IMG/VR virus record: IMGVR_UViG_3300044710_000137
Span: 1 to 64,000 of that record
Reading direction: 5' to 3' (one strand)
Source of the DNA: a virus
Length of the DNA: 64,000 nucleotides
Shown here: positions 696 through 36,268 of the stretch, in pieces
Layout of the letters: each line of letters starts with the position of its first letter
Position numbering within the stretch: position 1 is the stretch's first letter
The notes under the pieces: generated by a model
The model's database searches: none
What the model was told of the DNA's origin: nothing
What the model saw: only the letters and a program-made list of their open reading frames with translations
Translations under genes and position numbers: made by a program

Positions 696-700
696 ATCTC

Positions 701-6880: not shown

Positions 6881-8902
6881 ATGGGCGGATACGCAACCAT
6901 CCCTCTATCAGGTATTGCTCCTCAAATTCAAACTCCAACTCAAGCTCTACAAGGAGCCGCAGGAGTAGGAAGCACAGTAGCGGATACCCGTCTGCGTCAG
7001 CAGCAGGCGGAACAAATCGCGTTACAGAACCAGCAATTGCAAATCCAGTTGCAAGGCCAGCAGGCCATGACGCAGGCCTGGAGAAACGTCAACGGCCTCG
7101 GTCCTGGAACATCCGATGGATCGCAGGCCCCCGTGACACCACAACAGACCCCGCCCGTTGCCGCGGCAGCACCCACAACTCCAGGGCAGCTATCCGGCGC
7201 GCCCGTGCCTTTATCCGCGGTACCGGGTCTCACCACGCCTGTACCGACCTCGATGGCGCCCTCCGGCGCAGCTCCGGCCGGCGCGATGCCGCTTTCCCAG
7301 GAAGCCTCGACCATGGGTCAAGGTGCTCCCGCTCCAGCCCTACAAGGCGCTCCCATGCAAGCCCCTCCTGGCCAGCCTCAGGGCGCTCAGGCCCCAGCAG
7401 CTCAACCCACAAAGCCCATCACCACGGGCGCTCCCATAATGGACCGCTGGTTCGCCGAAATGCAAAGGCTGGGCGTCCCTCCCCAGATGATTATGGCGGC
7501 CCAGACCAACACCGTCAACTACCTGAAGGACCGCGCCGCGCTCGACGCCGACACACTGAAAAATAGCGCCGCGCAACACGACATGGCCTCAGGTGCGTGG
7601 ACCTCGTTCGCACAGCAGCCCATCGACTATAAGGCGCAAAACGAACAGGATTTCGTGAACAACCAGGTGCGCCAGGGTAATATCACGGTGCAACAGGCGC
7701 GCAACTTGGGAAGCCTCTATTCTCCCAATATGACCCCGGAACAGGAAAAGGCGGCGGATCAAAAATTCAACGCGATCGCCAGCCTCTACCTAAGCGCAAG
7801 CCAATTGGACCAGCGTGCCGAGCGGATGGGCACCGCGGCCCGCGGCCAAGGTTATGCCGCCGAAGCCGCCCTCAAACAGAACCAGGCCGAAAACCAGCAG
7901 GCCGCGGCGACGTTCCCGAGCGATCCTACCCAATTACCGCAATACCTCAGCTCGCAACCCTCCCGGATTCAAACCATGCTGGCAGGCAAATCCTACGCGG
8001 ACGCCAACGCCATCATGCAGAGGATTGCCCTGCCGCCGGCGGATTACGCCAAGCAGGTTCAACAGCAGACCGCCGCCGATTGGGATCAAGCGCTGAAAGC
8101 CGCGAAGGCCGGTGAATCGCAATACAATACGGTTCTCCAAAAGCTCGCCATCACTAATCCCGACGTCCGCGCCAATCTCCCGGATACGTGGGATCCCAGT
8201 ACGCCCAAGAAGGTGCTCGATCTCGCATTGAATCCGGCGCAGAGTCAAGCGGCCGGCAATCAGGACGCCAACCGCGACCAGCGCGCCGATGCCGCTGCCG
8301 ATCGGGCGCAAGCCGCCGCAGAGCGTGCCGAACGCTCCGGCCAACCCACGCCGTACCAGATACAGCAGGAAACCCGCCAAGACCTCGCCGCTAAGAACAA
8401 AGCCGACGCCGCAGCACTGACGGCCCAGAACCTCAACCGGCAATACAGCATCGCGGCCGCCACGCCCTCCGGAGCCATCTACCGCGACCCTAAAAGCGGC
8501 GTTCAGCGGACCATGCCGCCAAACGACGACAAGGGAACCAATACAGTGAGAGAGGGATTACTGGATAGCGGCGAAACCGCACGTCAACAGGCCGAAGAAG
8601 CGCTGGCTACCTCTAATGAACTGCAAGCCAAGCATGGCTGGGGCAAGTACGGCGCGCCTCCGTCGCCCACTCCGCCTACTCCAACCACCCCTCCTACCCC
8701 TACTCCCACCCCAACAAAGCCGCCGCAGGGCAGCGCTGCTTCAGCAACAGGCACGCCAAGGCCTGGGGCGCAGCGCGGCGGTCCGCAAGGACAGAACGCC
8801 CCTCCAGCCAGCGTTATCGCCAAAGTAGCCGAGGGCCAAACTTTCTACGGCCCGGACGGTAAAGCCTGGAAGAAGGTCAACGGTAAAGCCGTCGCCCAAT
8901 AA
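6881..8902 (+). CDS. DNA ejection protein, P22 gp20-position
   Basis: 673 aa Gln/Ala/Pro-rich helical protein between gp7-like gene and giant gene; AAGGA SD. Confidence 0.65.
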   Translation: MGGYATIPLSGIAPQIQTPTQALQGAAGVGSTVADTRLRQQQAEQIALQNQQLQIQLQGQQAMTQAWRNVNGLGPGTSDGSQAPVTPQQTPPVAAAAPTTPGQLSGAPVPLSAVPGLTTPVPTSMAPSGAAPAGAMPLSQEASTMGQGAPAPALQGAPMQAPPGQPQGAQAPAAQPTKPITTGAPIMDRWFAEMQRLGVPPQMIMAAQTNTVNYLKDRAALDADTLKNSAAQHDMASGAWTSFAQQPIDYKAQNEQDFVNNQVRQGNITVQQARNLGSLYSPNMTPEQEKAADQKFNAIASLYLSASQLDQRAERMGTAARGQGYAAEAALKQNQAENQQAAATFPSDPTQLPQYLSSQPSRIQTMLAGKSYADANAIMQRIALPPADYAKQVQQQTAADWDQALKAAKAGESQYNTVLQKLAITNPDVRANLPDTWDPSTPKKVLDLALNPAQSQAAGNQDANRDQRADAAADRAQAAAERAERSGQPTPYQIQQETRQDLAAKNKADAAALTAQNLNRQYSIAAATPSGAIYRDPKSGVQRTMPPNDDKGTNTVREGLLDSGETARQQAEEALATSNELQAKHGWGKYGAPPSPTPPTPTTPPTPTPTPTKPPQGSAASATGTPRPGAQRGGPQGQNAPPASVIAKVAEGQTFYGPDGKAWKKVNGKAVAQ

Positions 8903-11900
8903 TGCCTGCCGAACTGGGCGAAGGCTGGACGCTCGACGATTCGGCGTCCACCCCTCCCGCCTCACCAACACCCCCAACGCGCGCCCCGTCTAAGCCCCCT
9001 GCCGATCTCGGCGGTGGCTGGACCTTGACGGCGCCAGCTGCCCGCGCATCGTCCGGAGATCTCGGCGGTGGGTGGAACCTCGCTCCTCCATGGCCCTCTA
9101 TTGACCAAGCCGTCAGGATGCCGAGCGCTGCGAGCATGCAAGCGTCGATGGAGCAGGCGGAGCGTGATGCGTCAGAGGAAGGGGGCGACCAGCCGGCCCC
9201 TCCAACACCTACAAATATCCCTGGTGGAATTGCTTCCATCCCTGGCGGAGCCTTGCCTGGAATGCCCTCGCCAGCGGTTCCAGGACTCACCACGCCATTT
9301 GTCGGACACGGCATCGGCGGCGACTATCCCATCCCCAGCGGGCAAATCGTACAGGAACCATTCGAAACTATTCCGGCGCTCGAAACTATTGGCCGTGGTG
9401 TCACCCGGATGGCGCAGGCCACCCCGACGCCGACACATGCCGCAAATCCGAAACAAACCGCATTGGGCTTGAGCGAAGTCCTGGGCGGCACGATGCAGGC
9501 AGTCGGCCCCCTGGCCATCCCTGCGGGACTCGTCGCAGCCCCCGCAGAAGCAGCCATCTCGCTGGGCGCCGGTATCGTCGCCCGAACTGCCACGCCTGCA
9601 TTGCTCAAGAAAGCCGGAGTAGCGCCCGAATATGCGGACCTGGCGGGCGACGTCGCCGGTCTCCTCGCGGGTTACGCCGCTGGGCATATCCGTCTATCGC
9701 CAGAGCAACAGAACCTCATTGAAGTCCTCCAGGGTAAGGATGCGCCAGGCGCGGGCATTGAAGATCCCCAGGTCAATCTTCTACGCAACATGGTGGACCG
9801 CGGCGGAACTGAAGGCGAACGAGCTGCAGCGCAAGGGGCTCTATTCCGCAAGTTCGGTATCAAGTACGGACCCGAGGATCTTTCCGGCACAGCTACGCCT
9901 GAACAATCCCCCACCCCACAAACTGCCCCTACCCAGGAACCAGCAACCGGCGCGGCCGCGACGGGTGCGGCACCAACATCTAATGTTTCTCCTGAAGTTT
10001 CAACATCTCCAGTAAAGTTTTCTAAAGGTGAAGTCTATACCAACACTCAAGGAGAAGCCGCCCATATTACCCAAGTTTCACCAGATGGAACAAAGATCAG
10101 TTTTGAATTAACAGTACCAGGAGTGATAAAACCCTTAAAGCTGGATTGGCCTGTTGGGAAATTTCAGATGAGGATGGGATTAACTCCTCGAGCTGAAGCC
10201 CAAGAAGAATCAGGTGTTAATGCCGCGCCGGCCGTCCCGTCCGTCGCTGGTACAACCGTTCCCCAGCCGGGCGCCGTTGCGGATTCCAACGCCGTACCGA
10301 CGCTGCAAACACCCCCGCCAACGCCCACACCTACCGCGAATTCCCAGCCGGTGCAGGCGCCCCCAGAAACCGCAGGCGCCATACCTCCAACTCAACAGAA
10401 TCGACAGGAAGCGCAGCCCCTACCGGCAATTACCGGGCAGGAAGGTGCCGCCCAGCTACCGCAAATTGCCACGGCGCCCGAGGGTCTACCAGCACCAGAC
10501 GCGGCTGCGGCTGGTGCGGCAGCAACACCTAAATTTGATTACGCCTCCACTCAAGTAAACCTTCCTTCTTCAATAGCTAACAGCGTCATCTACTTTGGCG
10601 AAACCATCCCTGCAAAGATCCTTGCACCTGAAGCTGGTCATTCTACTGCTGGAGAAACAGGTTCCACGGGTAGAGAAACAGAACCACACATCACCATCAA
10701 ATACGGCCTTCATGATGAAGATCCTTCCGCCGTTCAGGAAATTCTGAAGAACGAAGGCCCCATCACAGCCACCTTAGGCAAAGCCTCCATCTTCAACACC
10801 GACGACAGCGACGTTCTCAAAGTGGGCGTGGAATCCCCGGACCTCCAACGATTGAATGGCCTGGTTAGCCAACTGCCTCACACGGACACCCATCCGACTT
10901 ACGAACCCCACGTGACCATCGCTTACCTGAAAAAAGGCGAAGGGGCGAAGTACGACGGAAAGAGCATTCCAGGGGTCACCGGACAAACGGTATCATTTGA
11001 TGCTGTCCAGTTCTCGGACAAAAATGGGCAACATACTGCCATTCCGTTGGCAGGAAATGGACAAGAATCAGGTGTTGATGGCGCACCAGCCACAGCCGTG
11101 TCCGGTGCTGGTAGACCCTCCGGCGCAAGCCAGCAGTTGCCTCATAGCCTCACTGGAGCGAAGCCACGCTATAGCTACGGCGCACGCCAGTATGATTTGG
11201 AGTTCGCCGACGATCTCGACAAGGCAGCCTACATCACTGCGCAAGACAAGCGCTCGAAGCATGACGCCGACTACCTGAAATGGGCGATGGGCCAGACCGG
11301 CGGATCCGAAATGGACGTGCGCCAAGCTGGCGCGAACGTGCGCCATTTTATCAAGGACCTGGCCAAGGCGAATTCGGATGCCAGATCCGGCGAGACGCGC
11401 TTGGACATTCCGGCACTGGCGCGCAAGATCTTGTCGAAGCCCACCACGGCCGCTACGGTTGTACCAGCCGGGGGCGCGCAGCCGACACCGGCGGCAGCAA
11501 CATCAAATGCTTCGCCTGAGCTAACTCCATGGAGAGAGCTATTTGAAAGATACATTACCAATGGAGCCTCTGAAACTGAAGCAAAGATTCTCACCGAAAG
11601 AAGGCTAGGAAAAGAACCAGAAAGCCAGAAAGCACGAAAGCCAGAAATCGTTACCCCACCAGCCCCGTTGACTCCTCCCGTAAATGAGAGCATAGTAGAA
11701 CCGGGACTACCCAATGGAACCCCAAGTTCAGAAGCTCATCCAGAACTGGCAGCGCCAGAATCCGGAGGCGGTGAAGCGAATGCGCCAGAAGGGCAACCTG
11801 GAGAGCTTGGCCCTAGCAGCCTTGAACCGGCAGGCGGAAGTACTGTCGAGCCTACTCCAGAAGGGAACGCCCCATCTGGAAGCGCAGGAGCTGGCGAACG

Positions 11901-14900
11901 AGGAATTGCAGCTACCCCCCGGACCAGTGCAACCGGAGATAAACCCGCCGATTACCGCATAACCCCGGAAGACCACATCGGGGAAGGTTCGATCCGCCAA
12001 AAAGCCAACGACAACCTGGAAGCCATCCGCACCCTCAAGAAGATCGAGGCCGAAGGCCGCTACGCCACGCCCGAGGAGCAGAAAATCCTGGTCAAGTACG
12101 TAGGATGGGGCGGCATGCCGCAACCGTTCGCGGACTGGGGAATCCCTCGCGAGTGGCAGGGCGTACGCGCCGAAATGGATTCCTTAATGACAGCCGAGGA
12201 ATTCAAAAGTGCGCGCGCGTCTACCCCGAACGCCCACTACACATCGCCGCTGGTTATCTCGAAAATCTGGGATGCAGTTCGACGGCTGGGTCTCGGTGCG
12301 GAAGCGAGTTATCTCGAACCCGCCATGGGTGTCGGCCACTTCTACGGCCTGATGCCCGAGGACCTGTTGAACGGCGCGAGACGCACGGGCATCGAACTCG
12401 ATGCACTATCGGGCCGCATTTCGAAGCTACTTTACCCTGAAACCGATATCCACATCGCCGGGTTCGAAACCGTCCGGCTGCCGGGGAACTTCTTCGACGC
12501 CGCGGTGAGCAACGTCCCCTTCGGTAACTACGCGATCCACGATCCGGCATTCAAGCGCAATCCGGTGGCCACGCGCTCGATCCACGACTACTTCTTTGCC
12601 AAGGCCCTGGAGAAGGTGCGCCCGGGCGGCCTGGTGGCGTTCATCACTTCGAACTTCACGATGGACAAGCGCGATCCTTCGGTGCGGAAATACCTGGCGA
12701 GCCAGGCCGATCTGTTGGGAGCCATCCGCCTACCGAATTCCGCATTCAAGGGGAACGCCGGAACCGAAGTCACCACGGATGTGATTTTCCTCCGGAAGCG
12801 GGCGCCAGGGCAGAAGCCGGCGGCCGAACCGTGGACGGACCTGGCCGAGATCCAAGGCAACGTCGAGCGTCCGGACCGCTCCATGGGCAAGACTGCCATG
12901 GACGTGAACGAGTATTACGCCGCGCACCCGGAGATGATGCTGGGCGAAATGGGCCTACTGGGCACCATGTACGCCGATAAGAGCGCAGCCCTTACGGGCC
13001 AACTCACCCCCGAGAAGCTAGATGCGGCGATCGCCAGACTCCCGGAAGGCGCGATTCACCCTTGGGAAGCTCCGGTAGAACAGTCGGGGCCAGTGGCATT
13101 CGCCGACGCGAAGACTGTAAAGGACGGCGGCTACGCCATGAAGGACGGCCAATTGGTGGTCCGGCATGGCGACAGCCTTATTCCCGCGACCAACCCCGAC
13201 TGGCAGGTCAAACGCATCAAGGGCATGCTCGAAATCCGCAATGCCTTGCGCGAAGTGTTCCGGACCCAGATCGAAGACGCATCGGAGCCCGAGATCAAGA
13301 AAGCCATCCGCCACCTCAACACGGTCTACGACCATTTTGTGAAACAGAATGGCTATCTCTCGCAGACTCAGAATGTGCGCGCGTTTCACGGAGATCCGGA
13401 TGCGCCCGTCCTCCTGTCTCTCGAGAAGTGGGACCCGGAAGCCAAGAAGGCCGAGAAGACCCCTGTTTTCACCCAACGCACGGTAAGCGCAGCCAAGCGG
13501 ATCGACACGGCGGGATCGGCCAAGGAAGCCCTGGCGATTTCGCTCAACGAGAAAGGCCGTATCGATTGGGTCCGCATGCAGCAGTTGACCGGGCAGACGC
13601 CGGCGGAAATGCAGGCGGAGCTTGGACCGCTGATTTACCAGAACCCCAACGCGCGCCAGTGGCAGACCGCCGAAGAATACCTATCGGGCAACGTGCGCCA
13701 GAAGCTGGCCGAGGCCCGCGCCGCGGCGGGGCAAATCGGGATGCAGCCGCAATTCCAGCGCAACGTGGAAGCGCTCGAAGCGGTGCAGCCCAAGGATTTG
13801 CAGCCCGAAGATATCGAAGCCAAGATGGGCGCCAGTTGGATTCCGCGCCAGTACATCAGCCAGTTCGTCGGCGAGCTGCTGGGCGTCGATCCGCGCTACA
13901 TCCAGGTTTCGCATTCCGAAGCCCTGGCTACCTGGACCATGAAGGTGCAAGTTGGCAATTCGAATGTCGCCAACGTCAAGACCTACGGTACAGACCGGTT
14001 CCTCGCGTCCGATTTGATCGAGATGGCGCTGAACATGAGAAACCCCACCGCTTATGACGAAGTGGGCACCGGCGCCGACAAGAAGACCGTCATCAATGAA
14101 AAGGAAACCCTCGCCGCGCGCGAGATGCAGCAGCAGTTGAAAGACCGTTTCCGGGAGTGGGTTTGGCAGGATCCCGGCCGCGCCGAGACGCTGGGACGGC
14201 TCTATAACGACGAATTTAACTCTCTCAGGCTCCGAGAGTATGACGGTTCGCATTTGGAACTGCCAGGTATGTCCGCATCGATCAAGCTGCGGCCGCACCA
14301 GAAGAACGCCATCTGGCGCGTGGTGTCGAGCGGCGGCAACACATTACTCGCGCATGTGGTAGGAGCGGGAAAAACCTACGAAATGATTGGGGGCGCTATG
14401 GAATTGCGCCGGCTGGGCCTCGCCAAGAAGCCCGTGCTGGTCGTCCTCAAAAACCGTGTGGAACCCACGGGCGCGGAATTCCTGTCGATGTATCCCGGCG
14501 CGAACATCCTGGTGATGACGCCCGAGCAATTCACCGCGGCCAACCGCGCGAAGGTGATGGCGCGGATTGCCACGGGGAATTGGGACGCCGTGATCGTCTC
14601 CTACGAATCTTTTGAAAAGCTGCCCGTATCGGATGAGACTTTCAATTCCTACCTGAACGACCAGATCGACGACCTGGAGAATTACATCCGGGAGATGAAG
14701 GCGGACAACTCCGACGCCAAGCTCGTAAAACAGATGGAGAAGGCCAAGAAATCCCTTGAAGCGAAGCTACGCGGGAAGGCCGACCGCGAATCGAAGGATA
14801 CAGGCATCGGCTTCGAGGAGCTGGGCGTCGACTCGCTATTTGTGGACGAGGCCGATAACTTCAAAAACCTGTTCTTTCCCACGAAGATGACCCGAATCCG

Positions 14901-17900
14901 CGGGCTGCCCAACACCGAATCGAAGCGCGCCTTCGATATGTACATCAAGACCCAGACCATCGCCAAGCGCAATGGCGGCCGTGGAATCGTCTTCGCCACC
15001 GGAACTCCTATCGCCAACACCATGGCCGAAATGTGGACCATGCAGCGGTACCTGCAGCCGGATTATCTGCGGGAGCACGGGTTGCAGCACTTCGACGCTT
15101 GGGCGCAAACCTTCGGCGAAGTGGTGCCGACGCTCGAAGTCTCTCCGGACGCCTCAGGCTTCCGGCTAACCAACCGCTTTGCCAAGTTTGTGAACATCCC
15201 GGAACTGGTGTCCGGCTTCCGGTTGATGGCCGACGTGCAAACCGCGGACATGCTGAAGCTGCCCGTTCCCCGGCTCAAAGGTGGACAGCGCACCACGGTG
15301 CCCGCGCCGGCGAGCCCGGAGCAAACCGCATACCTGGCGAGCCTTGCGCAACGCGCCAAGGATATTCGCGAAGGAAGGGTAAAAGATCCGCGCATCGACA
15401 ACATGCTGAAGGTCTCGACGGATGGCCGAAAATCTGCCCTCGACATGCGCCTGGTGGACCGCGGGGCGGAAGACTTCCGCGATTCCAAGGTGAACAAGGT
15501 TGTGGACAAGGTGGTCGATATCTGGAAGGCTACCGCCAAGAACAACAGCGCGCAGCTCGTCTTCCTGGATTTCTCGAAGCCGGCCGAGCCGGGCGAAGGC
15601 CACAAGTTCAGCGTCTACGACGACATTAAGGCGAAACTGCTGGCCAGGGGTATTCCCGCCAAGCAAATCGCTTTCATCCACGATGCGGCGAGCACCGAGG
15701 AAGCCGCGCAATTATCCCACGACGTCAACGCCGGCCGTATCCGCGTGCTCATGGGCTCGACACAGAAGATGGGCGTCGGGCTTAACCTCCAGAAGCGCCT
15801 GATTGCATTGCATCACCTGGACGCGCCATGGCGCCCGCGCGATATCGAGCAGCGGGAAGGCCGCATTCTCAGACAGGGCAACGAGAACCCGGAAGTCCAG
15901 ATTTACCAATACGTCACCGAGCCCAGCTTCGACGCGAAGATGTGGGACACGCTGAAAACCAAGGCGCAGTTCATCGGCCAGGTCATGCGCGGCGAGGTCA
16001 CCGTGCGCACCGCCGACGACGTAGCGGACTCCGCCCTCACTTACGCGGAAGTCGCCGCCATCGCTTCCGGCAATCCGGCCATCCGGGAGAAGACCGTCAT
16101 CGACGCCGAGGTGCGCAAGCTGGACGCTATGCGATCCCGCCACGACAAGCAACAGGCCGATCTGAAGCGCGAAGCCGTCTCCCTTCCCCAGCGCATCCAG
16201 GCCCAAAGCCAGGCGGCCGCCAAATACCAGAAAGACATCGCGGTTCGCGACGCCTCTCCGAACCAGTTCACTGTGGGTAAACAGACGTTCACCGGAGACG
16301 ACGCGCGGAAGCGCGCCGCGGCAGCCATTGCCAAGGTCCTCGACACGGCCAAGGATTCCAGAGAGCCTATCAGCTTCGGTTCTTACCGCGGCTTCGCTCT
16401 CGAAACCCGCTATCGGCAACCGGGCATTACTACGAAAGGGATGGAGCCGCAACCCCTCCCGGACATCACCATCCGCGGCGCATCGAGCTATGGCGCGAAC
16501 ACTAACCCCGATGAACCACTGGGTACTCTCCAGAGCATCGAGATAGCCGTCCGCGGGATCGACGGCCACCTGAACGGCGCCGTCGCCAATATGACCGACG
16601 CGCAGCGCAAGCTGGCCGATACGAACGACCTTTTGGGGAAGCCGTTCGAACAGGAAGCCAAGCTCAAGACACTCCTCGATCGCCAGAGGGCTCTCGCTAA
16701 GGAATTGCAGACCGACGCCGCGGACCAGCAGGCAGCTTCGGCCAATTTGCCACAGCCCGAGGAAGAAGGAGAATCCGTAGCGGCAGCGGAAACCGACGCG
16801 GCATCAAAGAATACTTCCGAGGCCGGGTTTCTTAAATTTCACCGTCCAGGCCAAGCTCCTCCCATGCCGGAGAACCTCCGTAAATTCTCGGAAGATACCG
16901 GGGAAACACTTCACTGGGACGGCAGTAATTGGGTAGCCGACAGCCATGCCGAGACGGAGCAAGCCACAGCCGCTCAGAATCTCGCAGTTCAGGAAATGAG
17001 CCGGGCTTACCTGGATCCCTCCGATAAACGATTCGGCGAGCGCATCCGGACGTCCGTCACCGGCATGCGGGACGTATGGATCGCCCAAACCAATCAATTG
17101 CGCGGCCGTCTGCGCAAGCTGCTACCGAACTACGTGGACCGGGAAGCTTTGACCCTGATGCGGGAGTTCCGCAACCGGCCGGGCGAGATGCGCCAATTCC
17201 TGGAAGGCACGCACCCGTTCTACGGCGAGATGCGTGAGCTATCGCCCGAACTGGCGGCCGATGCCGCGGAGCGCATGGAAAAGCTGGAGCCCGTAGTGGA
17301 ACGTGCGGAAAATCCCACTCCGGAGATGATCGAAGCCGACCGGCAGTTGACGGAATACTTCACCGAGCACCTGGCCGAGGGCAAGGAATTGGGCTTCATC
17401 GACAGCGACATTCCAAACGAAGAGTACATCACCCATCTACTCCAACCGGACGAGAATGCTCCGAGCCGCATCAGCCGGACGGCCGCGCGCCTATTCCCCA
17501 CCCGGGCAGGTCTGGGCCCCAAGCGCTTCCAATTCGCCAAAGGGCGCATCTTCCCCACCGTGATGCACGGTATCGCGGCAGGTAAGGCGTACCACCTCGA
17601 TGCCACGGATGCCCTGACCATCTACGGTGAGAAGTGGGCCAATCAAGCCGCGCTGCGCACGTTTTTGAATGTGGCCAGGGATAACGCCATCGGCAAATGG
17701 GGCACGGACTCCGGTTTACGGAACGGAAAGATCCCGGCCAACTGGGTGGCCATGGCGCCGGAGAACCGTGCATTCCGTAATGAGGTCCCCTATATCAACG
17801 CCCAAGGCGAGGCTGACGTGGCGCATCAGAATTTCTATGTCGAGCCGAGCGTCAACGAGGCCATGCGGCCCATCTTCGATCCCGATTACACCAGCCGCAT

Positions 17901-19095
17901 TCCAGGCGCAAAAGAAGCCCGCTTGTACAACGCCTACATCAAAGCAGCCGAACTGGCCCTATCCCTCTTCCATCCAAAAGCTTTGACCCTGAGCGCGCTC
18001 GCGAGCGACGGCCCTTTCGATTTGATCGATTCCTGGGCATCCGATATGGACTCGCCCGAATTCGAACGCCTGGAGCGGGAGGCGATCCGCGCCGGCGCAC
18101 CCACTGCGATCCTGGGCAGGACTGTAGAGGCGTACAAAGCAGTACGGCCTAGCTCCCTGCCCACGAAAATGGATACTGTGCGGGGATTGCCGGGGATCAA
18201 GCAGGCGGAACAAGCCGCCGCGGCCATGTCGCATGCCACCTTCGACGTGCTGCAGCGCAAGTATAAAGTGCTGGGCTTCGCGCAGCATGATGCTGCCTGG
18301 ATGGCAAACCACCCGGACGCAACGCCCGAAGAGCACTTCGAGGCGCAGCGCCTGATTGCCAAATACATCAACGGCGTCTTCGGCGGCCTTCACTGGGAAA
18401 ATCTCGGCATACAGAGGATGGCCCTGACCATCGCCCGCCTGATCTTTCTGGCGCCGGACTGGACATTCTCGAACCTGGCCACTGGAAAATATACCTTTGA
18501 CGGAGGTCCGGGCGGCGATGCGGCGCGCAAGTTCTGGCTTGGGGCAATTTTCTGGTTCACGAGCCTTTCCCTCGCAACCAGTTTGCTGTTCAATTACAAC
18601 AAGAAATTCCGCGACGTGTTCAAGGAATGGGTCAAGGATCCGACACAGGTCTACGTTGGCGAGGACAATAAACGCCGGCCGCTGCACATGAATATGTTCT
18701 TTCCGGGAGCCACGGGCGATCTCGGGACCCTGTTGCACGCCGCATACAACTACGGCGTGCCGGTAGGAATGGCGCGCTACATCGCGAACAAGGAGAGCCC
18801 CCTGGCGAAAGCAGCCACGCACCAGATGGCCAACGAGGATGAATTGCGCCGCCCGATCGTGCGGAAGACCGGCACCATGGTTCACCACCAGCCGGTGACG
18901 TTCGCGCAAAATACCGCGGCAGGAGTCAAGCAGCTCGCCAGCGATGTAGTCCCGGTCCCATTCACCATCCCCACTATAGTCAGGATGCTGGAAGACAAAG
19001 ACCACAAATACACCGAAGCCCAGTATGCGGCCGTGGTGCTCAACGGACGGCCACCTCTACCATTGGAACCCGAAAAGAAACCACACCGGCGGTAA
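8902..19095 (+). CDS. Giant polyvalent ejection-position protein: 2H phosphoesterase + N6-adenine MTase + SNF2 helicase (DarB-like)
   Basis: PHIT/PHVT (10687, 10909); YLEPAMGVGHF and NVPF (12511); LRPHQ, AHVVGAGKT, VDEAD, WRPRDIEQREGRILRQGN. Confidence 0.9.
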   Translation: MPAELGEGWTLDDSASTPPASPTPPTRAPSKPPADLGGGWTLTAPAARASSGDLGGGWNLAPPWPSIDQAVRMPSAASMQASMEQAERDASEEGGDQPAPPTPTNIPGGIASIPGGALPGMPSPAVPGLTTPFVGHGIGGDYPIPSGQIVQEPFETIPALETIGRGVTRMAQATPTPTHAANPKQTALGLSEVLGGTMQAVGPLAIPAGLVAAPAEAAISLGAGIVARTATPALLKKAGVAPEYADLAGDVAGLLAGYAAGHIRLSPEQQNLIEVLQGKDAPGAGIEDPQVNLLRNMVDRGGTEGERAAAQGALFRKFGIKYGPEDLSGTATPEQSPTPQTAPTQEPATGAAATGAAPTSNVSPEVSTSPVKFSKGEVYTNTQGEAAHITQVSPDGTKISFELTVPGVIKPLKLDWPVGKFQMRMGLTPRAEAQEESGVNAAPAVPSVAGTTVPQPGAVADSNAVPTLQTPPPTPTPTANSQPVQAPPETAGAIPPTQQNRQEAQPLPAITGQEGAAQLPQIATAPEGLPAPDAAAAGAAATPKFDYASTQVNLPSSIANSVIYFGETIPAKILAPEAGHSTAGETGSTGRETEPHITIKYGLHDEDPSAVQEILKNEGPITATLGKASIFNTDDSDVLKVGVESPDLQRLNGLVSQLPHTDTHPTYEPHVTIAYLKKGEGAKYDGKSIPGVTGQTVSFDAVQFSDKNGQHTAIPLAGNGQESGVDGAPATAVSGAGRPSGASQQLPHSLTGAKPRYSYGARQYDLEFADDLDKAAYITAQDKRSKHDADYLKWAMGQTGGSEMDVRQAGANVRHFIKDLAKANSDARSGETRLDIPALARKILSKPTTAATVVPAGGAQPTPAAATSNASPELTPWRELFERYITNGASETEAKILTERRLGKEPESQKARKPEIVTPPAPLTPPVNESIVEPGLPNGTPSSEAHPELAAPESGGGEANAPEGQPGELGPSSLEPAGGSTVEPTPEGNAPSGSAGAGERGIAATPRTSATGDKPADYRITPEDHIGEGSIRQKANDNLEAIRTLKKIEAEGRYATPEEQKILVKYVGWGGMPQPFADWGIPREWQGVRAEMDSLMTAEEFKSARASTPNAHYTSPLVISKIWDAVRRLGLGAEASYLEPAMGVGHFYGLMPEDLLNGARRTGIELDALSGRISKLLYPETDIHIAGFETVRLPGNFFDAAVSNVPFGNYAIHDPAFKRNPVATRSIHDYFFAKALEKVRPGGLVAFITSNFTMDKRDPSVRKYLASQADLLGAIRLPNSAFKGNAGTEVTTDVIFLRKRAPGQKPAAEPWTDLAEIQGNVERPDRSMGKTAMDVNEYYAAHPEMMLGEMGLLGTMYADKSAALTGQLTPEKLDAAIARLPEGAIHPWEAPVEQSGPVAFADAKTVKDGGYAMKDGQLVVRHGDSLIPATNPDWQVKRIKGMLEIRNALREVFRTQIEDASEPEIKKAIRHLNTVYDHFVKQNGYLSQTQNVRAFHGDPDAPVLLSLEKWDPEAKKAEKTPVFTQRTVSAAKRIDTAGSAKEALAISLNEKGRIDWVRMQQLTGQTPAEMQAELGPLIYQNPNARQWQTAEEYLSGNVRQKLAEARAAAGQIGMQPQFQRNVEALEAVQPKDLQPEDIEAKMGASWIPRQYISQFVGELLGVDPRYIQVSHSEALATWTMKVQVGNSNVANVKTYGTDRFLASDLIEMALNMRNPTAYDEVGTGADKKTVINEKETLAAREMQQQLKDRFREWVWQDPGRAETLGRLYNDEFNSLRLREYDGSHLELPGMSASIKLRPHQKNAIWRVVSSGGNTLLAHVVGAGKTYEMIGGAMELRRLGLAKKPVLVVLKNRVEPTGAEFLSMYPGANILVMTPEQFTAANRAKVMARIATGNWDAVIVSYESFEKLPVSDETFNSYLNDQIDDLENYIREMKADNSDAKLVKQMEKAKKSLEAKLRGKADRESKDTGIGFEELGVDSLFVDEADNFKNLFFPTKMTRIRGLPNTESKRAFDMYIKTQTIAKRNGGRGIVFATGTPIANTMAEMWTMQRYLQPDYLREHGLQHFDAWAQTFGEVVPTLEVSPDASGFRLTNRFAKFVNIPELVSGFRLMADVQTADMLKLPVPRLKGGQRTTVPAPASPEQTAYLASLAQRAKDIREGRVKDPRIDNMLKVSTDGRKSALDMRLVDRGAEDFRDSKVNKVVDKVVDIWKATAKNNSAQLVFLDFSKPAEPGEGHKFSVYDDIKAKLLARGIPAKQIAFIHDAASTEEAAQLSHDVNAGRIRVLMGSTQKMGVGLNLQKRLIALHHLDAPWRPRDIEQREGRILRQGNENPEVQIYQYVTEPSFDAKMWDTLKTKAQFIGQVMRGEVTVRTADDVADSALTYAEVAAIASGNPAIREKTVIDAEVRKLDAMRSRHDKQQADLKREAVSLPQRIQAQSQAAAKYQKDIAVRDASPNQFTVGKQTFTGDDARKRAAAAIAKVLDTAKDSREPISFGSYRGFALETRYRQPGITTKGMEPQPLPDITIRGASSYGANTNPDEPLGTLQSIEIAVRGIDGHLNGAVANMTDAQRKLADTNDLLGKPFEQEAKLKTLLDRQRALAKELQTDAADQQAASANLPQPEEEGESVAAAETDAASKNTSEAGFLKFHRPGQAPPMPENLRKFSEDTGETLHWDGSNWVADSHAETEQATAAQNLAVQEMSRAYLDPSDKRFGERIRTSVTGMRDVWIAQTNQLRGRLRKLLPNYVDREALTLMREFRNRPGEMRQFLEGTHPFYGEMRELSPELAADAAERMEKLEPVVERAENPTPEMIEADRQLTEYFTEHLAEGKELGFIDSDIPNEEYITHLLQPDENAPSRISRTAARLFPTRAGLGPKRFQFAKGRIFPTVMHGIAAGKAYHLDATDALTIYGEKWANQAALRTFLNVARDNAIGKWGTDSGLRNGKIPANWVAMAPENRAFRNEVPYINAQGEADVAHQNFYVEPSVNEAMRPIFDPDYTSRIPGAKEARLYNAYIKAAELALSLFHPKALTLSALASDGPFDLIDSWASDMDSPEFERLEREAIRAGAPTAILGRTVEAYKAVRPSSLPTKMDTVRGLPGIKQAEQAAAAMSHATFDVLQRKYKVLGFAQHDAAWMANHPDATPEEHFEAQRLIAKYINGVFGGLHWENLGIQRMALTIARLIFLAPDWTFSNLATGKYTFDGGPGGDAARKFWLGAIFWFTSLSLATSLLFNYNKKFRDVFKEWVKDPTQVYVGEDNKRRPLHMNMFFPGATGDLGTLLHAAYNYGVPVGMARYIANKESPLAKAATHQMANEDELRRPIVRKTGTMVHHQPVTFAQNTAAGVKQLASDVVPVPFTIPTIVRMLEDKDHKYTEAQYAAVVLNGRPPLPLEPEKKPHRR
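9938..9978 (+). repeat. Family A hairpin element (in frame in giant gene)
   Basis: ACCA GC-AACCG G CGC GGCC GCG A CGGGT-GC GGCACCAAC. Confidence 0.9.
10214..10252 (-). repeat. Family A hairpin element (in giant gene)
   Basis: TACCA GC-GACGG A CG GGA CG G CCGGC-GC GGCATTAAC. Confidence 0.85.
10486..10528 (+). repeat. Family A hairpin element (in giant gene)
   Basis: CTACCA GC-ACCAG A CGC GGCT GCG G CTGGT-GC GGCAGCAAC. Confidence 0.9.
11071..11113 (-). repeat. Family A hairpin element (in giant gene)
   Basis: CTACCA GC-ACCGG A CAC GGCT GTG G CTGGT-GC GCCATCAAC. Confidence 0.9.
11461..11502 (+). repeat. Family A hairpin element (in giant gene)
   Basis: GTACCA GC-CGGGG GCGCGCAGCCGA CACCG-GC GGCAGCAAC. 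Confidence 0.85.
11714..11962 (+). CDS. Probable nested (+1 frame) gene, TnpV/DUF1896-like helical protein
   Basis: Amphipathic W..QNP....M...G.L...G...EA.E.A pattern overlapping a disordered linker just before the MTase. Confidence 0.55.
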   Translation: MEPQVQKLIQNWQRQNPEAVKRMRQKGNLESLALAALNRQAEVLSSLLQKGTPHLEAQELANEELQLPPGPVQPEINPPITA

Positions 19096-19208
19096 TTCAG
19101 CGCCGGCGCGTCTTTCGCAGATAGCCCAGCGAGTCTCCGCAAGCCATCCCCAGCAGGAACGCCAGAACGACAAGTGTGGCTATAGCGACTGGGGACATAG
19201 CATCCAGC

Positions 19209-30349: not shown

Positions 30350-30703
30350 GTGAAAGAAGAAAAATCAGTTGTCGATGCCGCCGCGGTCGCCTCCACGCCC
30401 GCGGCTGGTAAAGGCGAACGCTGGTCGGGATCTGTGCAGGTTTGTCTTTTTCGCACGCATGACGATTCCGGCATCCGTATTGAGGTGTGGCTGAAAACCG
30501 AGGGCAACTGGAAGTTATCCTCGGACACCGACCACACCTGGCAGTCCCTGCATTGCCTGATCCACGAAGAACAACGCGAGGCGGGGCAATCCTCTGCCGC
30601 ATCGCCGACGGCCTATTGGAAGCTGAACGCCATGGAACCAGCGGCCAACACGGATGTGGTGGACGCGGCACCAACACCTAAACATTTGAAAGATGAACCA
30701 TGA
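30350..30703 (+). CDS. Hypothetical protein beginning and ending in A elements
   Basis: SVVDAAAVASTPAAG ... PAANTDVVDAAPT. Confidence 0.55.
   Translation: MKEEKSVVDAAAVASTPAAGKGERWSGSVQVCLFRTHDDSGIRIEVWLKTEGNWKLSSDTDHTWQSLHCLIHEEQREAGQSSAASPTAYWKLNAMEPAANTDVVDAAPTPKHLKDEP
30371..30410 (-). repeat. Family A hairpin element
   Basis: TACCA GC-CGCGG G CG TGGAGG CG A CCGCG-GC GGCATCGAC. Confidence 0.85.
30637..30676 (+). repeat. Family A hairpin element
   Basis: Near-identical to 29891 copy. Confidence 0.85.
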
Positions 30704-32347: not shown

Positions 32348-32605
32348 TCAATTGAACCCCTCGATCCATTTTCTAACCTCATTCGGGTCATTGTGACCAC
32401 CATAGAACATTGGGGCGATCATCTTGCCAGGGTGATCTTTCAACTCTGGATGTTTGCTCAGGTCTGAGAGCATCGAGGTCATCGCATTTACCGGATCGCC
32501 GGGAAGATACTCAAGGGCTCGGCGCTTGGCCCACTCCAGGTGTTCAGCGCGATTGCGAATGGTTGATTGTGGAAGACCGGCATAGTCTTCAGCATCATCG
32601 TTCAT
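32348..32605 (-). CDS. Conserved phage hypothetical
   Basis: RAEHLEWAKRRALEYL..SDLSKHPE..RKWIEGFN. Confidence 0.7.
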   Translation of the reverse strand: MNDDAEDYAGLPQSTIRNRAEHLEWAKRRALEYLPGDPVNAMTSMLSDLSKHPELKDHPGKMIAPMFYGGHNDPNEVRKWIEGFN

Positions 32606-32907
32606 TTCAGTCCACCTTCAGAAGTATTCGGTGTTGATGCCGCTTCCGTCGCCGCGGCGCCGGAAGCTGGTAGAACCAGTTCGGGTTCGCCTCCGACGCC
32701 CCTGAGTGCTTCGAGTACCGCTGCAGCTATGCCTATAGCGGGGGAACGGTCGGTATTGTTGATGGCCGGCTTGAATTCCGCCTGGACATCCACACCGCCC
32801 CCTTCTACGTCGCTGATGGTGAGGGTGAAGGTGATGCGTCGACCAGCCGCAGGCACGGCGGTGACTGCGGCGGCATCAACAACTGATTTGCCTTTTAATT
32901 TTCGCAT
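32602..32907 (-). CDS. Hypothetical protein beginning and ending in A elements
   Basis: KSVVDAAAVTAVPAAG ... LPASGAAATEAAST. Confidence 0.6.
   Translation of the reverse strand: MRKLKGKSVVDAAAVTAVPAAGRRITFTLTISDVEGGGVDVQAEFKPAINNTDRSPAIGIAAAVLEALRGVGGEPELVLPASGAAATEAASTPNTSEGGLK
32633..32672 (-). repeat. Family A hairpin element
   Basis: CTACCA GC-TTCCG G CGC CGCG GCG A CGGAA-GC GGCATCAAC. Confidence 0.9.
32842..32880 (+). repeat. Family A hairpin element
   Basis: ACCA GC-CGCAG G CAC GGCG GTG A CTGCG-GC GGCATCAAC. Confidence 0.9.
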
Positions 32908-33230
32908 TATACTATTGCCTCTAATAATGGCCGTGCTTTATCCTTCCGGATAATCCTGGTTTTCCGCGCCTTCCGCTTCCACACCCGGTAGTCGTGCTTC
33001 TTATGACACGGCTCGCACCAGGCCGCCAGGTTGTCGTCGGTATCATGCCCCGGTGTTCGATCGATATGCGCGATCGATAAACGTAAACCCTCCCGCTTGC
33101 ACTTCTCGCACCTGCCGCCGGCGCGCGCCAGTATCCGCGGGCGGATGACATACCGCCAGTGATAGCCGTAGAATTTTCGGAGTTCCGGGCGCACGGGCAC
33201 GGCTATCTCAATCTCCTCGACGCGGCCCAA
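32907..33230 (-). CDS. HNH endonuclease
   Basis: RAGGRCEKC...IAHID....DDNLAAWCEPCH..HD. Confidence 0.8.
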   Translation of the reverse strand: MGRVEEIEIAVPVRPELRKFYGYHWRYVIRPRILARAGGRCEKCKREGLRLSIAHIDRTPGHDTDDNLAAWCEPCHKKHDYRVWKRKARKTRIIRKDKARPLLEAIV

Positions 33231-35983: not shown

Positions 35984-36268
35984 TTAAATTTCTCCTGGAG
36001 TGCCTGAGGGATTTGGTGTTGCTGCCGCGCGTGCCGCAGCCGCGTCCCGCGCTGGTTCCTGCCATCGGACAGTGGGCGGATTAGTTCTGATGTCCAGCAC
36101 CCACCAGTAACCGCAGGTTTGGCACGTAGCCCGCAGCGACATACCGTACCTAAGTACTGGACCGCAACCATTTGGACAGTTGCGGGCATCCCAGACGATA
36201 TCGCTTTTACCAGCCGGGGGCGCGGCGGCGACACCGGCGGCATCAACAACTGATTTTTCTTGGCTCAT
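35984..36268 (-). CDS. Zn-ribbon protein beginning and ending in A elements
   Basis: KSVVDAAG..CPNGC..CQTC..PARDAAAARAA. Confidence 0.55.
   Translation of the reverse strand: MSQEKSVVDAAGVAAAPPAGKSDIVWDARNCPNGCGPVLRYGMSLRATCQTCGYWWVLDIRTNPPTVRWQEPARDAAAARAAATPNPSGTPGEI
36018..36056 (-). repeat. Family A hairpin element
   Basis: ACCA GC-GCGGG A CGC GGCT GCG G CACGC-GC GGCAGCAAC. Confidence 0.9.
36208..36247 (+). repeat. Family A hairpin element
   Basis: TACCA GC-CGGGG G CGC GGCG GCG A CACCG-GC GGCATCAAC. Confidence 0.9.

What the first reader, a model, noticed from the sequence alone, without database searches (positions are those of the whole stretch)
9938..11502. Five A elements read in frame partition the giant protein's N-terminus into domain modules
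Seen: alternating A copies (9938+, 10214-, 10486+, 11071-, 11461+) translate as stop-free Ala/Pro linkers (EPATGAAATGAAPT, SGVNAAPAVPSVAG, LPAPDAAAAGAAAT, SGVDGAPATAVSGAG, VPAGGAQPTPAAAT). They fall between a small beta domain, a linker, the 2H domain, and a globular-looking LP..L.GAKPRY..F..DLDKAAYI domain. The same peptides start or end several small ORFs (KSVVDAA..PAAG). Inference: the element may provide a DNA-level mechanism for domain accretion in polyvalent proteins.
Basis: partly seen in the sequence, partly recalled or inferred. Interest (0 to 1): 0.8.

Follow-up and report, generated by a model that had tools for sequence, protein, structure and literature searches.

The report
Hairpin repeats translated as domain linkers
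Five copies of a small hairpin-forming DNA repeat are read straight through as floppy linkers between the folded parts of a soil phage's giant injected-type protein; they mark its module joints and may help reshuffle them, but they do not clearly create them.

Summary
Observation confirmed. A covariance model finds exactly five full-length copies of the ~39-nt hairpin repeat inside ORF 8902..19095 (3397 aa), in + - + - + order. The genome holds 28 copies. All five are read in frame as the quoted Ala/Pro/Gly peptides. The stem covaries strongly.

All five peptides fall in low-confidence coil between a confident beta domain, a 2H phosphoesterase and a helical domain. Homology blocks end 2-12 residues from four element edges.

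The repeat occurs in only two sequenced phages, plus peptide traces in a third giant protein. None of 84 other loci with the same 2H domain carries it. Three of those already fuse 2H to the methylase. Relatives with identical domain order differ by hairpin-only indels.

In its favour, copies sit near both edges of a recently exchanged 5-kb core. The N-terminus also repeats the "antisense copy - body - sense copy" layout of this phage's small genes.

Best reading: a linker-tolerated structured repeat that decorates, and may recombine, module joints. The scan noted similar translated hairpin linkers in another soil phage.

The parts
8902..19095 (+). Giant ORF, 3397 aa: a DarB-like polyvalent protein (N-terminal modules, then N6-methylase and SF2 helicase core, then a unique C-terminus)
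   Evidence: ORF list and translation. Pfam: 2_5_RNA_ligase2 and Helicase_C above their cut-offs; ResIII and SNF2-rel_dom weak, below theirs. blastn and tblastn hit genes annotated as DarB-like antirestriction. 34% identity over 1748 columns to the Ralstonia phage Cimandef protein.
9939..9977 (+). A1, sense copy, read as EPATGAAATGAAPT (aa 346-359)
   Evidence: CM 68.5 bits; ssDNA hairpin -12.7 kcal/mol; pLDDT 35-40, coil
9978..10215 (+). Small beta module (aa 360-438), AT-rich. It has no homologue detectable by sequence.
   Evidence: AF2: four strands and a helix, pLDDT 81-90. GC 41%, GC3 25%, 0.8 CpG per 100 nt. phmmer against 1.84 billion representatives gave only 10 repeat-like partial hits. 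A profile of look-alike segments of G001, P0004 and P0003 aligns at aa 376-432 but is not significant.
10216..10252 (-). A2, antisense copy, read as (S)GVNAAPAVPSVAG (aa 437-450)
   Evidence: CM 61.1 bits; hairpin -10.9 kcal/mol; coil, pLDDT below 50. P0004 has the same beta-then-antisense-copy arrangement.
10253..10487 (+). Pro-rich linker (aa 451-529), normal GC
   Evidence: pLDDT 34-48, no secondary structure; GC 66%
10488..10526 (+). A3, sense copy, read as LPAPDAAAAGAAAT (aa 529-542). Forms a 57-nt, 89% complementary inverted pair with A4.
   Evidence: CM 70.5 bits; inverted repeat I7. G001 lacks the 33-nt hairpin here, in otherwise collinear sequence.
10527..11073 (+). 2H phosphoesterase module (aa 543-724) with both H-x-T motifs
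   Evidence: Pfam PF13563 at 35.3 bits against a cut-off of 27. Invariant H54/T56 and H128/T130 in alignment A2. pLDDT 83-98. Foldseek hits Usb1, LigT, CPDase and Acb1. Homologue matches start at aa 544-547 and end at 716-728.
11074..11113 (-). A4, antisense copy, read as (SG)VDGAPATAVSGAG (aa 723-737)
   Evidence: CM 67.1 bits; hairpin -10.0 kcal/mol; coil, pLDDT below 50
11114..11462 (+). 'Glob' module (aa 738-853; LP..L.GAKPRY..F..DLDKAAYI), shared with other DarB-like giants
   Evidence: aa 728-852 match Cimandef aa 886-1009 at 39%, E 5e-16. aa 744-842 match P0003 aa 1356-1451 at 44%. AF2 gives helices at aa 772-844 with only pLDDT 53-67. No Pfam hit. Atlas scores below 0.9.
11463..11501 (+). 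A5, sense copy, read as VPAGGAQPTPAAAT (aa 854-867)
   Evidence: CM 63.5 bits. 89% identical over 45 nt to a copy in the G001 giant gene, although the flanks on both sides are unrelated.
11502..11713 (+). AT-rich 'tail' between A5 and the conserved core, with a predicted helical hairpin at aa 872-901
   Evidence: GC 47%, GC3 34%; helices with pLDDT ~60; no match in G001
11714..16742 (+). Methylase-helicase core shared with G001 at 78.7% nucleotide and 82% amino-acid identity
   Evidence: Other shared proteins are 25-55% identical, apart from one further 79% outlier.
16783..16807 (+). Possible decayed sixth copy (right half only), 41 nt after the core homology ends
   Evidence: CM 11.8 bits, E 0.32, not significant alone. 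Sequence read. G001 has a truncated copy at the equivalent place.
30350..30703 (+). Example of the small-gene layout: start, antisense copy (KSVVDAAAVASTPAAG), ~70-aa body, sense copy (PAANTDVVDAAPT), stop. ORFs 32602..32907 (-) and 35984..36307 (-) have the same layout.

Best explanation
The five sequences are copies of a dispersed, lineage-specific, hairpin-forming repeat. It is about 39 nt long (57 nt with its conserved flanks) and is selected for its nucleic-acid structure.

Two of its reading frames, one per orientation, are free of stops and spell Ala/Pro/Gly-rich coil. A copy can therefore survive inside coding DNA only where a floppy segment is harmless: at protein ends and in inter-domain linkers. 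In the giant DarB-like polyvalent protein the copies sit in the disordered linkers that already separate independently folding modules (beta unit, 2H phosphoesterase, helical DarB-type domain, methylase-helicase core).

Copies are gained and lost within linkers without any change of domains. Because they are short patches of shared sequence in both orientations, they probably also act from time to time as crossover points when relatives exchange or delete modules, much as PeSL repeats do between T4-type genes.

Shown: the identity, structure, frame and placement of the copies; the indels; and the mosaic nature of the gene. Inferred: that selection filters copies into linkers, and that recombination takes place at them. 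How the repeat spreads, and what the hairpin does for the phage, are not known.
For: - Structure is conserved, not peptide: 49 double-sided stem changes against 14.5 +/- 3.7 expected.
- Five full-length copies in the ORF, all in coil with pLDDT below 50, between folded units.
- Consistent frame use. 13 of 13 copies inside the three giant proteins use the CCA-GCN frame when sense and the GCT-GGT frame when antisense: 5 here, 4 in G001, and 4 in P0004 at peptide level. A second stop-free frame exists in each orientation.
- The boundaries pre-exist. The 2H limits (aa 544-547 to 716-728) are the same in L107, L110, L113, L155, P0003, P0004 and P0007. None of the four DNA loci has the repeat. P0003 and P0007 show no clear A-type peptide; a loose pattern matched once in P0007, and I read that as chance. 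P0004 has a sense copy before its 2H.
- Indels without domain change. This phage has LPA[PDAAAAGAAAT]PKFDY where G001 has EPA-PKFDF. P0004 has an extra antisense-and-sense pair around a linker that G001 keeps bare, and G001 lacks 10 residues of the copy before 2H.
- Recombination is plausible. A5 and a G001 copy are 89% identical between unrelated flanks. Copies lie 48 and 111 aa upstream and about 23-33 aa downstream of the 82%-identical core block. This phage's order beta-(-)A-linker-(+)A-2H equals P0004's order minus the block between two same-sense copies.
Against: - No empty or filled site shows a target duplication, and no transposase was found (Y1_Tnp absent), so how copies spread is unexplained.
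- Homology ends are not exactly at the elements. They lie 2-12 aa away for 2H and glob, but 23-111 aa away for the core.
- The N-terminal breakpoint at aa 243-263 has no element near it.
- Only two genomes with DNA carry the repeat, so there are few independent events.
- The P0004 evidence is peptide-level only.
- The AT-rich, G-poor stretch on the 3' side of every copy is not explained by a simple tolerance model.
- Contigs of two soil metagenome runs show no rearranged form, but contigs cannot show rare variants.
Confidence: 0.55

Rival explanations
1. One reading: the element is the DNA-level device of domain accretion. Modules bracketed by inverted copies are cassettes. These cassettes are inserted into the giant gene, or neighbouring cassette genes are fused into it, so that the N-terminus is an accessory-gene array that has lost its stops.
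For: - The layout is the same as in the small genes: antisense copy, body, sense copy. Three clean one-gene examples exist. The linker and glob segments (235 and 349 nt) are of the same order of size as those gene bodies.
- The 2H module sits between a 57-nt, 89% complementary inverted pair.
- The beta and 2H segments are compositionally odd, at GC 41% and 50.5% against 61%.
- Orientation alternates in 19 of 27 adjacent pairs genome-wide, permutation P = 0.016.
- The order of 2H and glob is reversed relative to P0003.
Against: - 2H is fused to the methylase in L110, L113 and L155 without any element.
- 0 of 80 metagenome 2H loci have it.
- G001 and P0004 have the same domain order with 1 versus 4 copies.
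- No module of the N-terminus occurs as a free-standing gene in either phage.
- The low GC follows the 3' side of every copy genome-wide, including conserved codons of 2H, so it need not mean foreign cargo.
Confidence: 0.2
2. The hairpin is a functional signal for the phage, for example a transcription or Rho-related pause site, a replication or packaging signal, or a protein-binding site. Such a signal is needed at many places, so inside a 10-kb ORF it can only be put into linkers. The module joints are just the available parking places.
For: - The structure is conserved with covariation.
- Every copy is followed on its 3' side by 60-90 nt that are G-poor: 16-19% G against 28% in the genome and 29-31% on the 5' side.
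- Conserved single-stranded flanks.
- Retention in two phages that are otherwise only 25-55% identical in protein.
Against: - There are no copies in the remaining 7.6 kb of the ORF apart from one doubtful remnant, so spacing is not regular.
- No coincidence with sigma-70-like promoters (0 of 10) or intrinsic-terminator-like sites (0 of 17) in 23-41 kb.
- No Rfam family.
- Copies are lost in relatives without visible compensation.
- The halo follows the element's orientation and not the gene's, which fits a DNA-level role but not a signal in the mRNA.
Confidence: 0.15
3. An integron-like system. The hairpins are folded single-strand recombination sites for the small tyrosine recombinase that both phages encode, and they have evolved to be translatable, so that cassettes can be integrated in frame.
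For: - Both element-bearing genomes encode a small tyrosine recombinase of about 226-248 aa (PF00589, 81 bits; 36% identical to each other).
- The site's sequence varies but its structure is fixed, with a bulged A and a purine-purine mismatch.
- Cassette-like brackets around the modules.
Against: - The recombinase is not of the IntI type. NCBIfam integron integrase scores 37.6 bits against a cut-off of 265, and its best matches (XerA, FimB-type invertase) are all far below their cut-offs.
- It is not near any copy in G001.
- There are no inverted R-box cores around the hairpin (read; the attC consensus is recalled).
- Copies occur in both orientations.
- Tyrosine recombinases are common in phages for other reasons.
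Confidence: 0.07
4. The peptides themselves are the point. They would be standard flexible linkers, or cleavage or packaging signals, that release or target the modules of an injected protein.
For: - The same two peptide types recur at joints and at the ends of small proteins.
- Polyvalent proteins are thought to be delivered with the DNA (PMC5512222, passages).
- Other notes of this scan report linker motifs that look like protease sites in other phages (unchecked).
Against: - The middle of each peptide varies freely while base pairing is kept.
- The two orientations give unrelated peptides at equivalent joints.
- Relatives do without them at the same joints.
- Six of the 28 copies have, no open frame of 60 aa or more through the element in either named frame.
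Confidence: 0.05

Closest known systems
Rickettsia palindromic elements (RPEs) and other MITE-like repeats inserted in frame in genes (PMC10969869, passage read)
   Same: Dispersed palindromic repeats that sit inside open reading frames, are read through in frame, and are tolerated at places compatible with the protein fold.
   Different: RPEs are about 150 bp and encode a conserved peptide in bacterial housekeeping genes. This repeat is a 39-nt hairpin whose stem covaries. It is read in a fixed frame in either orientation. It sits in a phage, flanks small genes as well, and lies only at termini and linkers.
PeSL (promoter-early stem-loop) cassettes of T4-type phages (PMC2839356, abstract read; PMC4122927, search listing only)
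   Same: Short stem-loop-containing repeats scattered through the variable parts of a phage genome, where recombination between copies shuffles modules.
   Different: PeSLs are intergenic promoter-plus-terminator units. These copies coincide with no promoter-like or terminator-like site and are translated. Shuffling here would be between domains inside one ORF and is only inferred.
Polyvalent proteins of phages and conjugative elements, including DarB-like methylase-helicases (PMC5512222, passages read)
   Same: The host protein is one: a giant, multi-domain phage protein with methylase, SF2 helicase and a 2H phosphoesterase, a domain that the paper lists and predicts to counter host nucleotide signalling. 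The paper argues for repeated domain accretion from solo modules.
   Different: The words 'linker' and 'shuffling' do not occur in that paper, and the passages shown describe no repeat-based joint. Structured repeats at the joints are the added feature here.
REP / REPIN elements with RAYT transposases
   Same: Hairpins of 20-40 nt with conserved flanking bases, often in inverted pairs.
   Different: REPs are extragenic, chromosomal and tied to a Y1 transposase. No Y1_Tnp is found in either phage. No true copy appeared in one genome each of 185,579 prokaryote species when scanned with an exact pattern.
Integron attC sites with IntI
   Same: Recombination sites defined by folded structure and not by sequence, bracketing cassettes, and acted on by a tyrosine recombinase.
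   Different: No R/L box architecture. The recombinase is not IntI-like. Copies occur in both orientations, and the sites are translated.

Membership tests
Family-A hairpin repeat of this phage | Full-length match to the covariance model, with a foldable 2+7+3-bp hairpin | tested here: met
   Five matches of 61-70.5 bits, next best 12.3. ssDNA folds of -10 to -14.6 kcal/mol.
Polyvalent / DarB-like phage protein | A single giant phage ORF that combines a DNA methylase, an SF2 helicase and further effector-type domains | tested here: met
   3397-aa ORF. Pfam: 2_5_RNA_ligase2 and Helicase_C above their cut-offs; ResIII and SNF2-rel_dom weak, below theirs. Hits to genes annotated as DarB-like antirestriction. 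Sources name homologues 'N12 class adenine-specific DNA methylase'.
2H phosphoesterase superfamily | Two H-x-T/S motifs in a duplicated fold | tested here: met
   H54-x-T56 and H128-x-T130 are invariant in 6 of 6 aligned sequences. PF13563 at 35.3 bits against a cut-off of 27. Foldseek top hits are Usb1, LigT and CPDase.
Acb1 anti-CBASS nuclease | Match to the Acb1 family above the curated threshold | tested here: not met
   PF23474 at 21.4 bits against a cut-off of 27. The Acb1 structures 7t27 and 7t26 appear only among many 2H folds.
RPE-type in-frame palindromic element | Repeat inserted within ORFs and read in frame | tested here: met
RPE-type in-frame palindromic element | Element of about 150 bp that carries its own conserved peptide ORF | tested here: not met
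   39-nt core. The peptide centre varies with the stem. The size criterion is from the PMC10969869 passage.
PeSL cassette | Sigma-70-type promoter joined to a terminator stem-loop, lying between genes | tested here: not met
   0 of 10 promoter-like and 0 of 17 terminator-like sites in 23000-41000 coincide with the 17 copies there, and the counts are at shuffle level. The five copies lie inside an ORF.
PeSL cassette | Recombination between copies produces the differences between related phages | tested here: inconclusive
   Copies lie near block edges and between unrelated flanks. But only 2-3 lineage members exist, the edges are offset by 2-111 aa, and no rearranged form appears in contigs.
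REP/REPIN-RAYT | Associated Y1 (HUH) transposase; extragenic location | tested here: not met
   PF01797 is absent from both phage genomes in six-frame search, and the control rang in 6 of 14 genomes. Copies are translated. A host-encoded enzyme cannot be excluded.
Integron (attC + IntI) | IntI-type integrase | tested here: not met
   TIGR02249 at 37.6 bits against a cut-off of 265, matching only residues 172-213.
MITE | Terminal inverted repeats with a target-site duplication | tested here: inconclusive
   A3 and A4 form a 57-nt inverted pair. The one filled-versus-empty DNA comparison shows no duplication. The other pairs are of unlike stem types.

The most novel reading that the evidence does not exclude
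The repeat is a translatable recombination site. On this reading, a phage lineage has evolved a structured DNA joint that reads as harmless linker in either orientation. Gene cassettes of its accessory region can then be spliced in frame into, or out of, its injected polyvalent protein, possibly by the small tyrosine recombinase both phages carry. That would amount to an in-frame, integron-like arsenal builder.
Probability: 0.12. Interest if true: 0.85.

Novelty: new variant of a known kind. Interest (0 to 1): 0.55.

Why it matters
Polyvalent proteins are thought to be pieced together again and again from solo anti-defence modules. The passages I read of the paper that defined them (PMC5512222) describe no DNA-level route for this.

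This phage shows a structured repeat that is kept as a hairpin, is read in a fixed harmless frame in either orientation, and sits both at gene ends and at domain joints of such a protein. If the copies do act as crossover points, they are a natural standard connector for swapping protein domains. That would bear on how phages renew their counter-defence sets, and would be a model for engineered linkers.

If they are only tolerated passengers, they are still a clean case of selfish DNA mapping the disordered linkers of a protein, and a phage counterpart of the Rickettsia elements.

This scan has noted similar translated hairpin linkers in the giant protein of another soil phage (unchecked), so the phenomenon may be recurrent.

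Tried and rejected
Searches for the repeat elsewhere:
- Exact-pattern scan of viral contigs: 104 single hits and no contig with several, which I judge to be chance level. The 80 listed loci were not re-scored with the model.
- Exact-pattern scan of genome contigs: 55 single hits. The best model score among them was 27 bits, against 50-75 bits for true copies. So no host REP-like source was found. The limit is that only exact matches to one subtype were sought.
- Metagenome scan with the 2H alignment: the best 80 of 375 relatives, all 51% identity or less. The model found 0 copies.
- Earlier-findings look-up by sequence: nothing.
- Rfam on the whole window: only two tRNAs.
- Papers: searches turned up no report of translated hairpin repeats at domain joints of phage proteins. 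The library covers open-access papers only, and supplements were not seen.

Module and genome comparisons:
- Whole-genome DNA synteny with G001: only four blocks of 100 nt or more, so no genome-wide breakpoint statistic was possible. I used a protein-level comparison instead.
- Beta module against 1.84 billion representatives: 10 hits, all multi-stretch partial matches. I treat them as repeat-like noise.
- Profile of look-alike beta segments: i-E 0.06 in a two-sequence search, not significant.
- Atlas look-up of the glob module: best score 0.88, a lead only.
- Paralogue search of all modules in both phages: none found.

Sequencing runs: no RNA holder is listed. X1 may be the source. X2, from another study, holds identical short contigs, including one across A3. 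No joint at any element. Only contigs were laid, so rare rearrangements cannot be seen.

Considered and rejected:
- Intrinsic terminator or sigma-70 promoter.
- Host REP.
- attC.
- "Low-GC modules are foreign cargo" as the sole explanation.

Script slips: searches failed or misprinted because an earlier script had overwritten a scratch file. This was repaired.


Full report
WHAT THE WINDOW IS. The window is the first 64 kb of a single 84,545-bp virus record with GC near 59%. It encodes a P22-type portal and many small ORFs. ORF 8902..19095 encodes a 3397-aa protein. Pfam finds a 2H phosphoesterase at aa 592-680 and a helicase C-terminal domain above their cut-offs; ResIII and SNF2-related matches are weak and below theirs. 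Its DNA and protein match genes annotated as DarB-like antirestriction, methylase or helicase in Ralstonia, Burkholderia, Pseudomonas and other phages. It is therefore a polyvalent protein in the sense of PMC5512222 (passages read).

- Repeat finding and anchored pattern scans show a family with the form (tct)ACCAGC - hairpin - GCGGCATCAAC(aactgattt).
- I aligned 26 window copies. On that alignment the stem is 7 bp, then a purine-purine mismatch, then 3 bp. It pairs in 92.9% of cells, against 73.0 +/- 1.7 in shuffles. It has 49 double-sided changes against 14.5 +/- 3.7 expected (0 of 500 shuffles). It collapses to 22-52% pairing when the partner columns are slid. The nucleic-acid structure, not a peptide, is what is conserved.
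- A covariance model of the alignment finds 28 copies in the genome.
- With filters off, the model finds exactly five full-length copies in the giant ORF (61-70.5 bits). The next best match is 12.3 bits.
- All five fold as the hairpin in ssDNA, with two further C-G pairs beyond a bulged A in four of the five folds (all but A4), at -10 to -14.6 kcal/mol.
- The three sense copies are all read CCA-GCN. The two antisense copies are all read GCT-GGT. In each orientation a second stop-free frame exists but is not used.

THE COPIES DO SIT BETWEEN MODULES.
- AlphaFold2 was run on aa 340-940 with a shallow alignment of 19 rows, most of them covering only the 2H part.
- It gives a confident small beta unit at aa ~370-427 (pLDDT 81-90), a very confident 2H domain at aa 540-719 (83-98), a weakly predicted helical unit at aa ~772-844 (53-67) and a helical hairpin at aa 872-901 (~60).
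- All five encoded peptides are coil with pLDDT below 50, except the last four residues of A3, which abut the 2H domain. This test is partly circular, because Ala/Pro/Gly peptides would be called disordered anyway.
- Homology gives an independent check. 2H matches begin at aa 544-547 and end at 716-728 in L107, L110, L113, L155, G001, P0003, P0004 and P0007 and in jumbo-phage and Maribacter-phage records. A3 ends at aa 542 and A4 starts at aa 723-725.
- The 'globular-looking' segment is a real shared module. aa 728-852 match aa 886-1009 of the Cimandef DarB-like protein at 39% (E 5e-16). aa 744-842 match P0003 at 44%. A4 ends at aa 737-738 and A5 starts at aa 854.
- Foldseek places the 2H model with Usb1, LigT, CPDase and Acb1. 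Both H-x-T motifs are invariant.
- The beta unit has no detectable relatives.

THE SAME REPEAT FRAMES SMALL GENES.
- Five small genes have a Shine-Dalgarno-like site and a start codon 5-12 codons upstream of an antisense copy, so they begin M..KSVVDAAG..PAG.
- About nine ORFs have a sense copy (PA......AA(S/T)) within 4-21 codons of the stop.
- Three genes (30350..30703, 32907..32602, 36307..35984) are complete 'antisense copy - 50-70-aa body - sense copy' units.
- Inside the giant ORF, the Pro-rich linker and the glob module occupy the 'body' position. The beta and 2H modules occupy the position that gene junctions hold elsewhere.
- Orientation alternates in 19 of 27 adjacent pairs (permutation P = 0.016).
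- The small-gene calls are mine, from ORFs and ribosome-binding sites read by eye.

WHO ELSE HAS THE REPEAT.
- Of 81 viral loci with a DarB-type methylase or the 2H domain, only L111 has copies (7 matches). L111 is G001, an 87,751-bp phage with terminal repeats. G001 has 11 copies in all.
- None of 80 metagenome loci with related 2H domains has one.
- Exact-pattern scans of the viral and prokaryote genome collections gave only scattered single hits. The 55 genome hits were re-scored with the model and none was a true copy.
- A third giant protein, P0004 (5418 aa), shows the peptides. Two of them are SGVDAAPVAAAPVAG, whose 11-residue stretch AAPVAAAPVAG equals the antisense reading of my copy A1. 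It also has PAPDAAVAGAASN and APAAGAAATDAAS. Its DNA could not be fetched.
- The repeat is therefore lineage-specific and not a general feature of polyvalent proteins.

- In L110, L113 and L155 the 2H domain lies in the methylase's reading frame, with the same limits and no element.
- G001 and P0004 have the same order: beta unit, His-phosphatase (PF00300), then 2H. They align as one block of 726 bits. P0004 carries four copies where G001 carries one.
- P0004 has an antisense and a sense copy on either side of a short linker that G001 keeps bare.
- Before 2H, G001 lacks ten residues of the copy and keeps its tail.
- At that same site this phage has the full hairpin: LPA[PDAAAAGAAAT]PKFDY here against EPA-PKFDF in G001. 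This is a clean 33-nt difference in otherwise collinear codons, with no duplication.
- So copies come and go inside linkers without any change of domains.

- The two phages are distant. Shared proteins are 25-55% identical. But aa 915-2605 of the giant protein are 82% identical (78.7% over 5047 nt), so this core was exchanged far more recently.
- A5 lies 48 aa upstream of that block here. A copy that is 89% identical to A5 over 45 nt lies 111 aa upstream of it in G001, with unrelated sequence on both sides of each.
- Downstream, G001 has a truncated copy 32 aa past the end of the block. This phage has a doubtful right-half remnant 41 nt past it (11.8 bits, E 0.32).
- This phage's order beta-(-)A-linker-(+)A-2H is what P0004's order would become if the phosphatase block between two same-sense copies were deleted. 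The sequences are too diverged to prove this.
- A3 and A4 form a 57-nt, 89% complementary inverted pair around 2H.
- The order of 2H and glob is reversed relative to P0003.

COMPOSITION.
- The segments on the 3' (CAAC) side of each copy are AT-rich: beta GC 41% (GC3 25%), 2H 50.5%, post-A5 tail 47%. The linker is 66%, glob 61% and the core 61%.
- This holds for all 28 copies. G falls to 16-19% in the first 60 nt on the 3' side, against 29-31% on the 5' side and 28% genome-wide.
- In 2H it affects codons that are conserved in protein, and that are GC-richer in G001 where the hairpin is missing.
- So low GC is tied to the element and need not mark foreign cargo. I have no tested explanation for it.

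ENZYMES AND SIGNALS.
- No Y1 transposase is found in either phage.
- Both phages encode a small tyrosine recombaminase-family protein of the PF00589 family: 226 aa here at 38953..39633 (-), 81 bits. It scores far below every NCBIfam cut-off. Integron integrase scores 37.6 bits against 265. In G001 it is not near any copy.
- One HNH ORF lies at 32907..33230.
- Copies coincide with none of 10 promoter-like and none of 17 terminator-like sites in 23-41 kb, and with no Rfam family.
- Contigs of two soil metagenome runs carry the sequence unchanged and show no joint at an element, but contigs cannot show rare forms.

VERDICT.
- The best-supported account is that these are copies of a structured, dispersed repeat whose stop-free frames spell harmless coil. 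In coding DNA they therefore persist only at protein ends and in linkers, and so outline module joints that exist with or without them.
- They turn over by small indels. They probably serve now and then as crossover patches when related phages exchange or delete modules.
- The stronger claim, that the repeat is the mechanism by which domains are accreted, remains possible for this lineage. It is not needed by the data, and as a general rule it is contradicted by the many element-free homologues.
- Closest known: RPE-type in-frame palindromic elements (PMC10969869, passage read) for the translated state, and PeSLs (PMC2839356, abstract read) for the shuffling role. Defining features of both were tested and not met, so this works like them but is a member of neither.
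- Other notes of this scan report eight translated hairpin linkers in the giant protein of a peat phage (unchecked). The phenomenon may therefore be wider than this lineage.

Noticed in passing
window 11714-16742 versus G001: The methylase-helicase core of the giant gene is 82% identical in protein (78.7% in DNA) between two phages whose other shared proteins are 25-55% identical. It is an intragenic mosaic block, exchanged far more recently than the rest.
   Followed up: partly
window 43033-43647: A 204-aa ORF is the only other outlier, at 79% protein identity to G001. A member of another repeat family (D20) begins right after its stop in this phage, but not visibly in G001.
   Followed up: partly
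window 38953-39633 (-): A small tyrosine recombinase of 226 aa (PF00589, 81 bits), with a 36%-identical counterpart in G001. It consists mostly of the catalytic domain, and its nearest NCBIfam models are XerA and FimB-type invertases, all far below cut-off.
   Followed up: partly
3' side of all 28 copies, e.g. window 9978-10100, 10527-10650, 11502-11620: A one-sided G-poor, AT-rich stretch of about 60-90 nt follows every copy on its own strand (G 16-19% against 28%). This holds even through conserved 2H codons.
   Followed up: partly
window 16783-16807: A right half of an element (..GACGCGGCATCAAAG..) is read as ..AAAETDAASKNT.., 41 nt after the core homology with G001 ends. G001 has a truncated copy at the matching place.
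   Followed up: partly
window 16717-19092 (aa 2606-3397): The C-terminal 792 aa have no Pfam hit and no match in G001, P0003, P0004 or P0007. Those four share a C-terminal module of about 850 aa that this protein lacks.
   Followed up: partly
window 23479-23593 (-) and 40711-40782 (+): Two tRNA matches. The first spans 115 nt for a 71-position model, so it may hold an insert or intron.
   Followed up: no
window 647-708, 1299-1360, 1953-2014, 48016-48077, 54906-54942, 58982-59043; inverse at 40552-40604, 61174-61226, 62525-62577: A further dispersed repeat made of CCAGCCA/CCACCAG-type heptamer runs, apparently at or near gene starts and ends (families D8, D9 and D14).
   Followed up: no
window 10630-10670 (aa ~577-588): This 2H domain has a 12-residue Gly/Ser/Thr-rich insertion that the five DNA-derived homologues of alignment A2 lack. 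P0003 and P0007 appear by eye to have a similar one. It is the only dip in pLDDT within the domain.
   Followed up: no
window 8000-19500: A second soil-metagenome run from a different study holds short contigs identical to this gene. One of them spans A3 and the start of 2H, so the phage, or a near-identical one, occurs in more than one sample.
   Followed up: partly
window 32907-33230 (-): A 107-aa HNH-type ORF (23.7 bits in six-frame search; 20.8 bits against a cut-off of 21.4 as a protein) lies next to an inverted pair of copies (32633-, 32842+).
   Followed up: no
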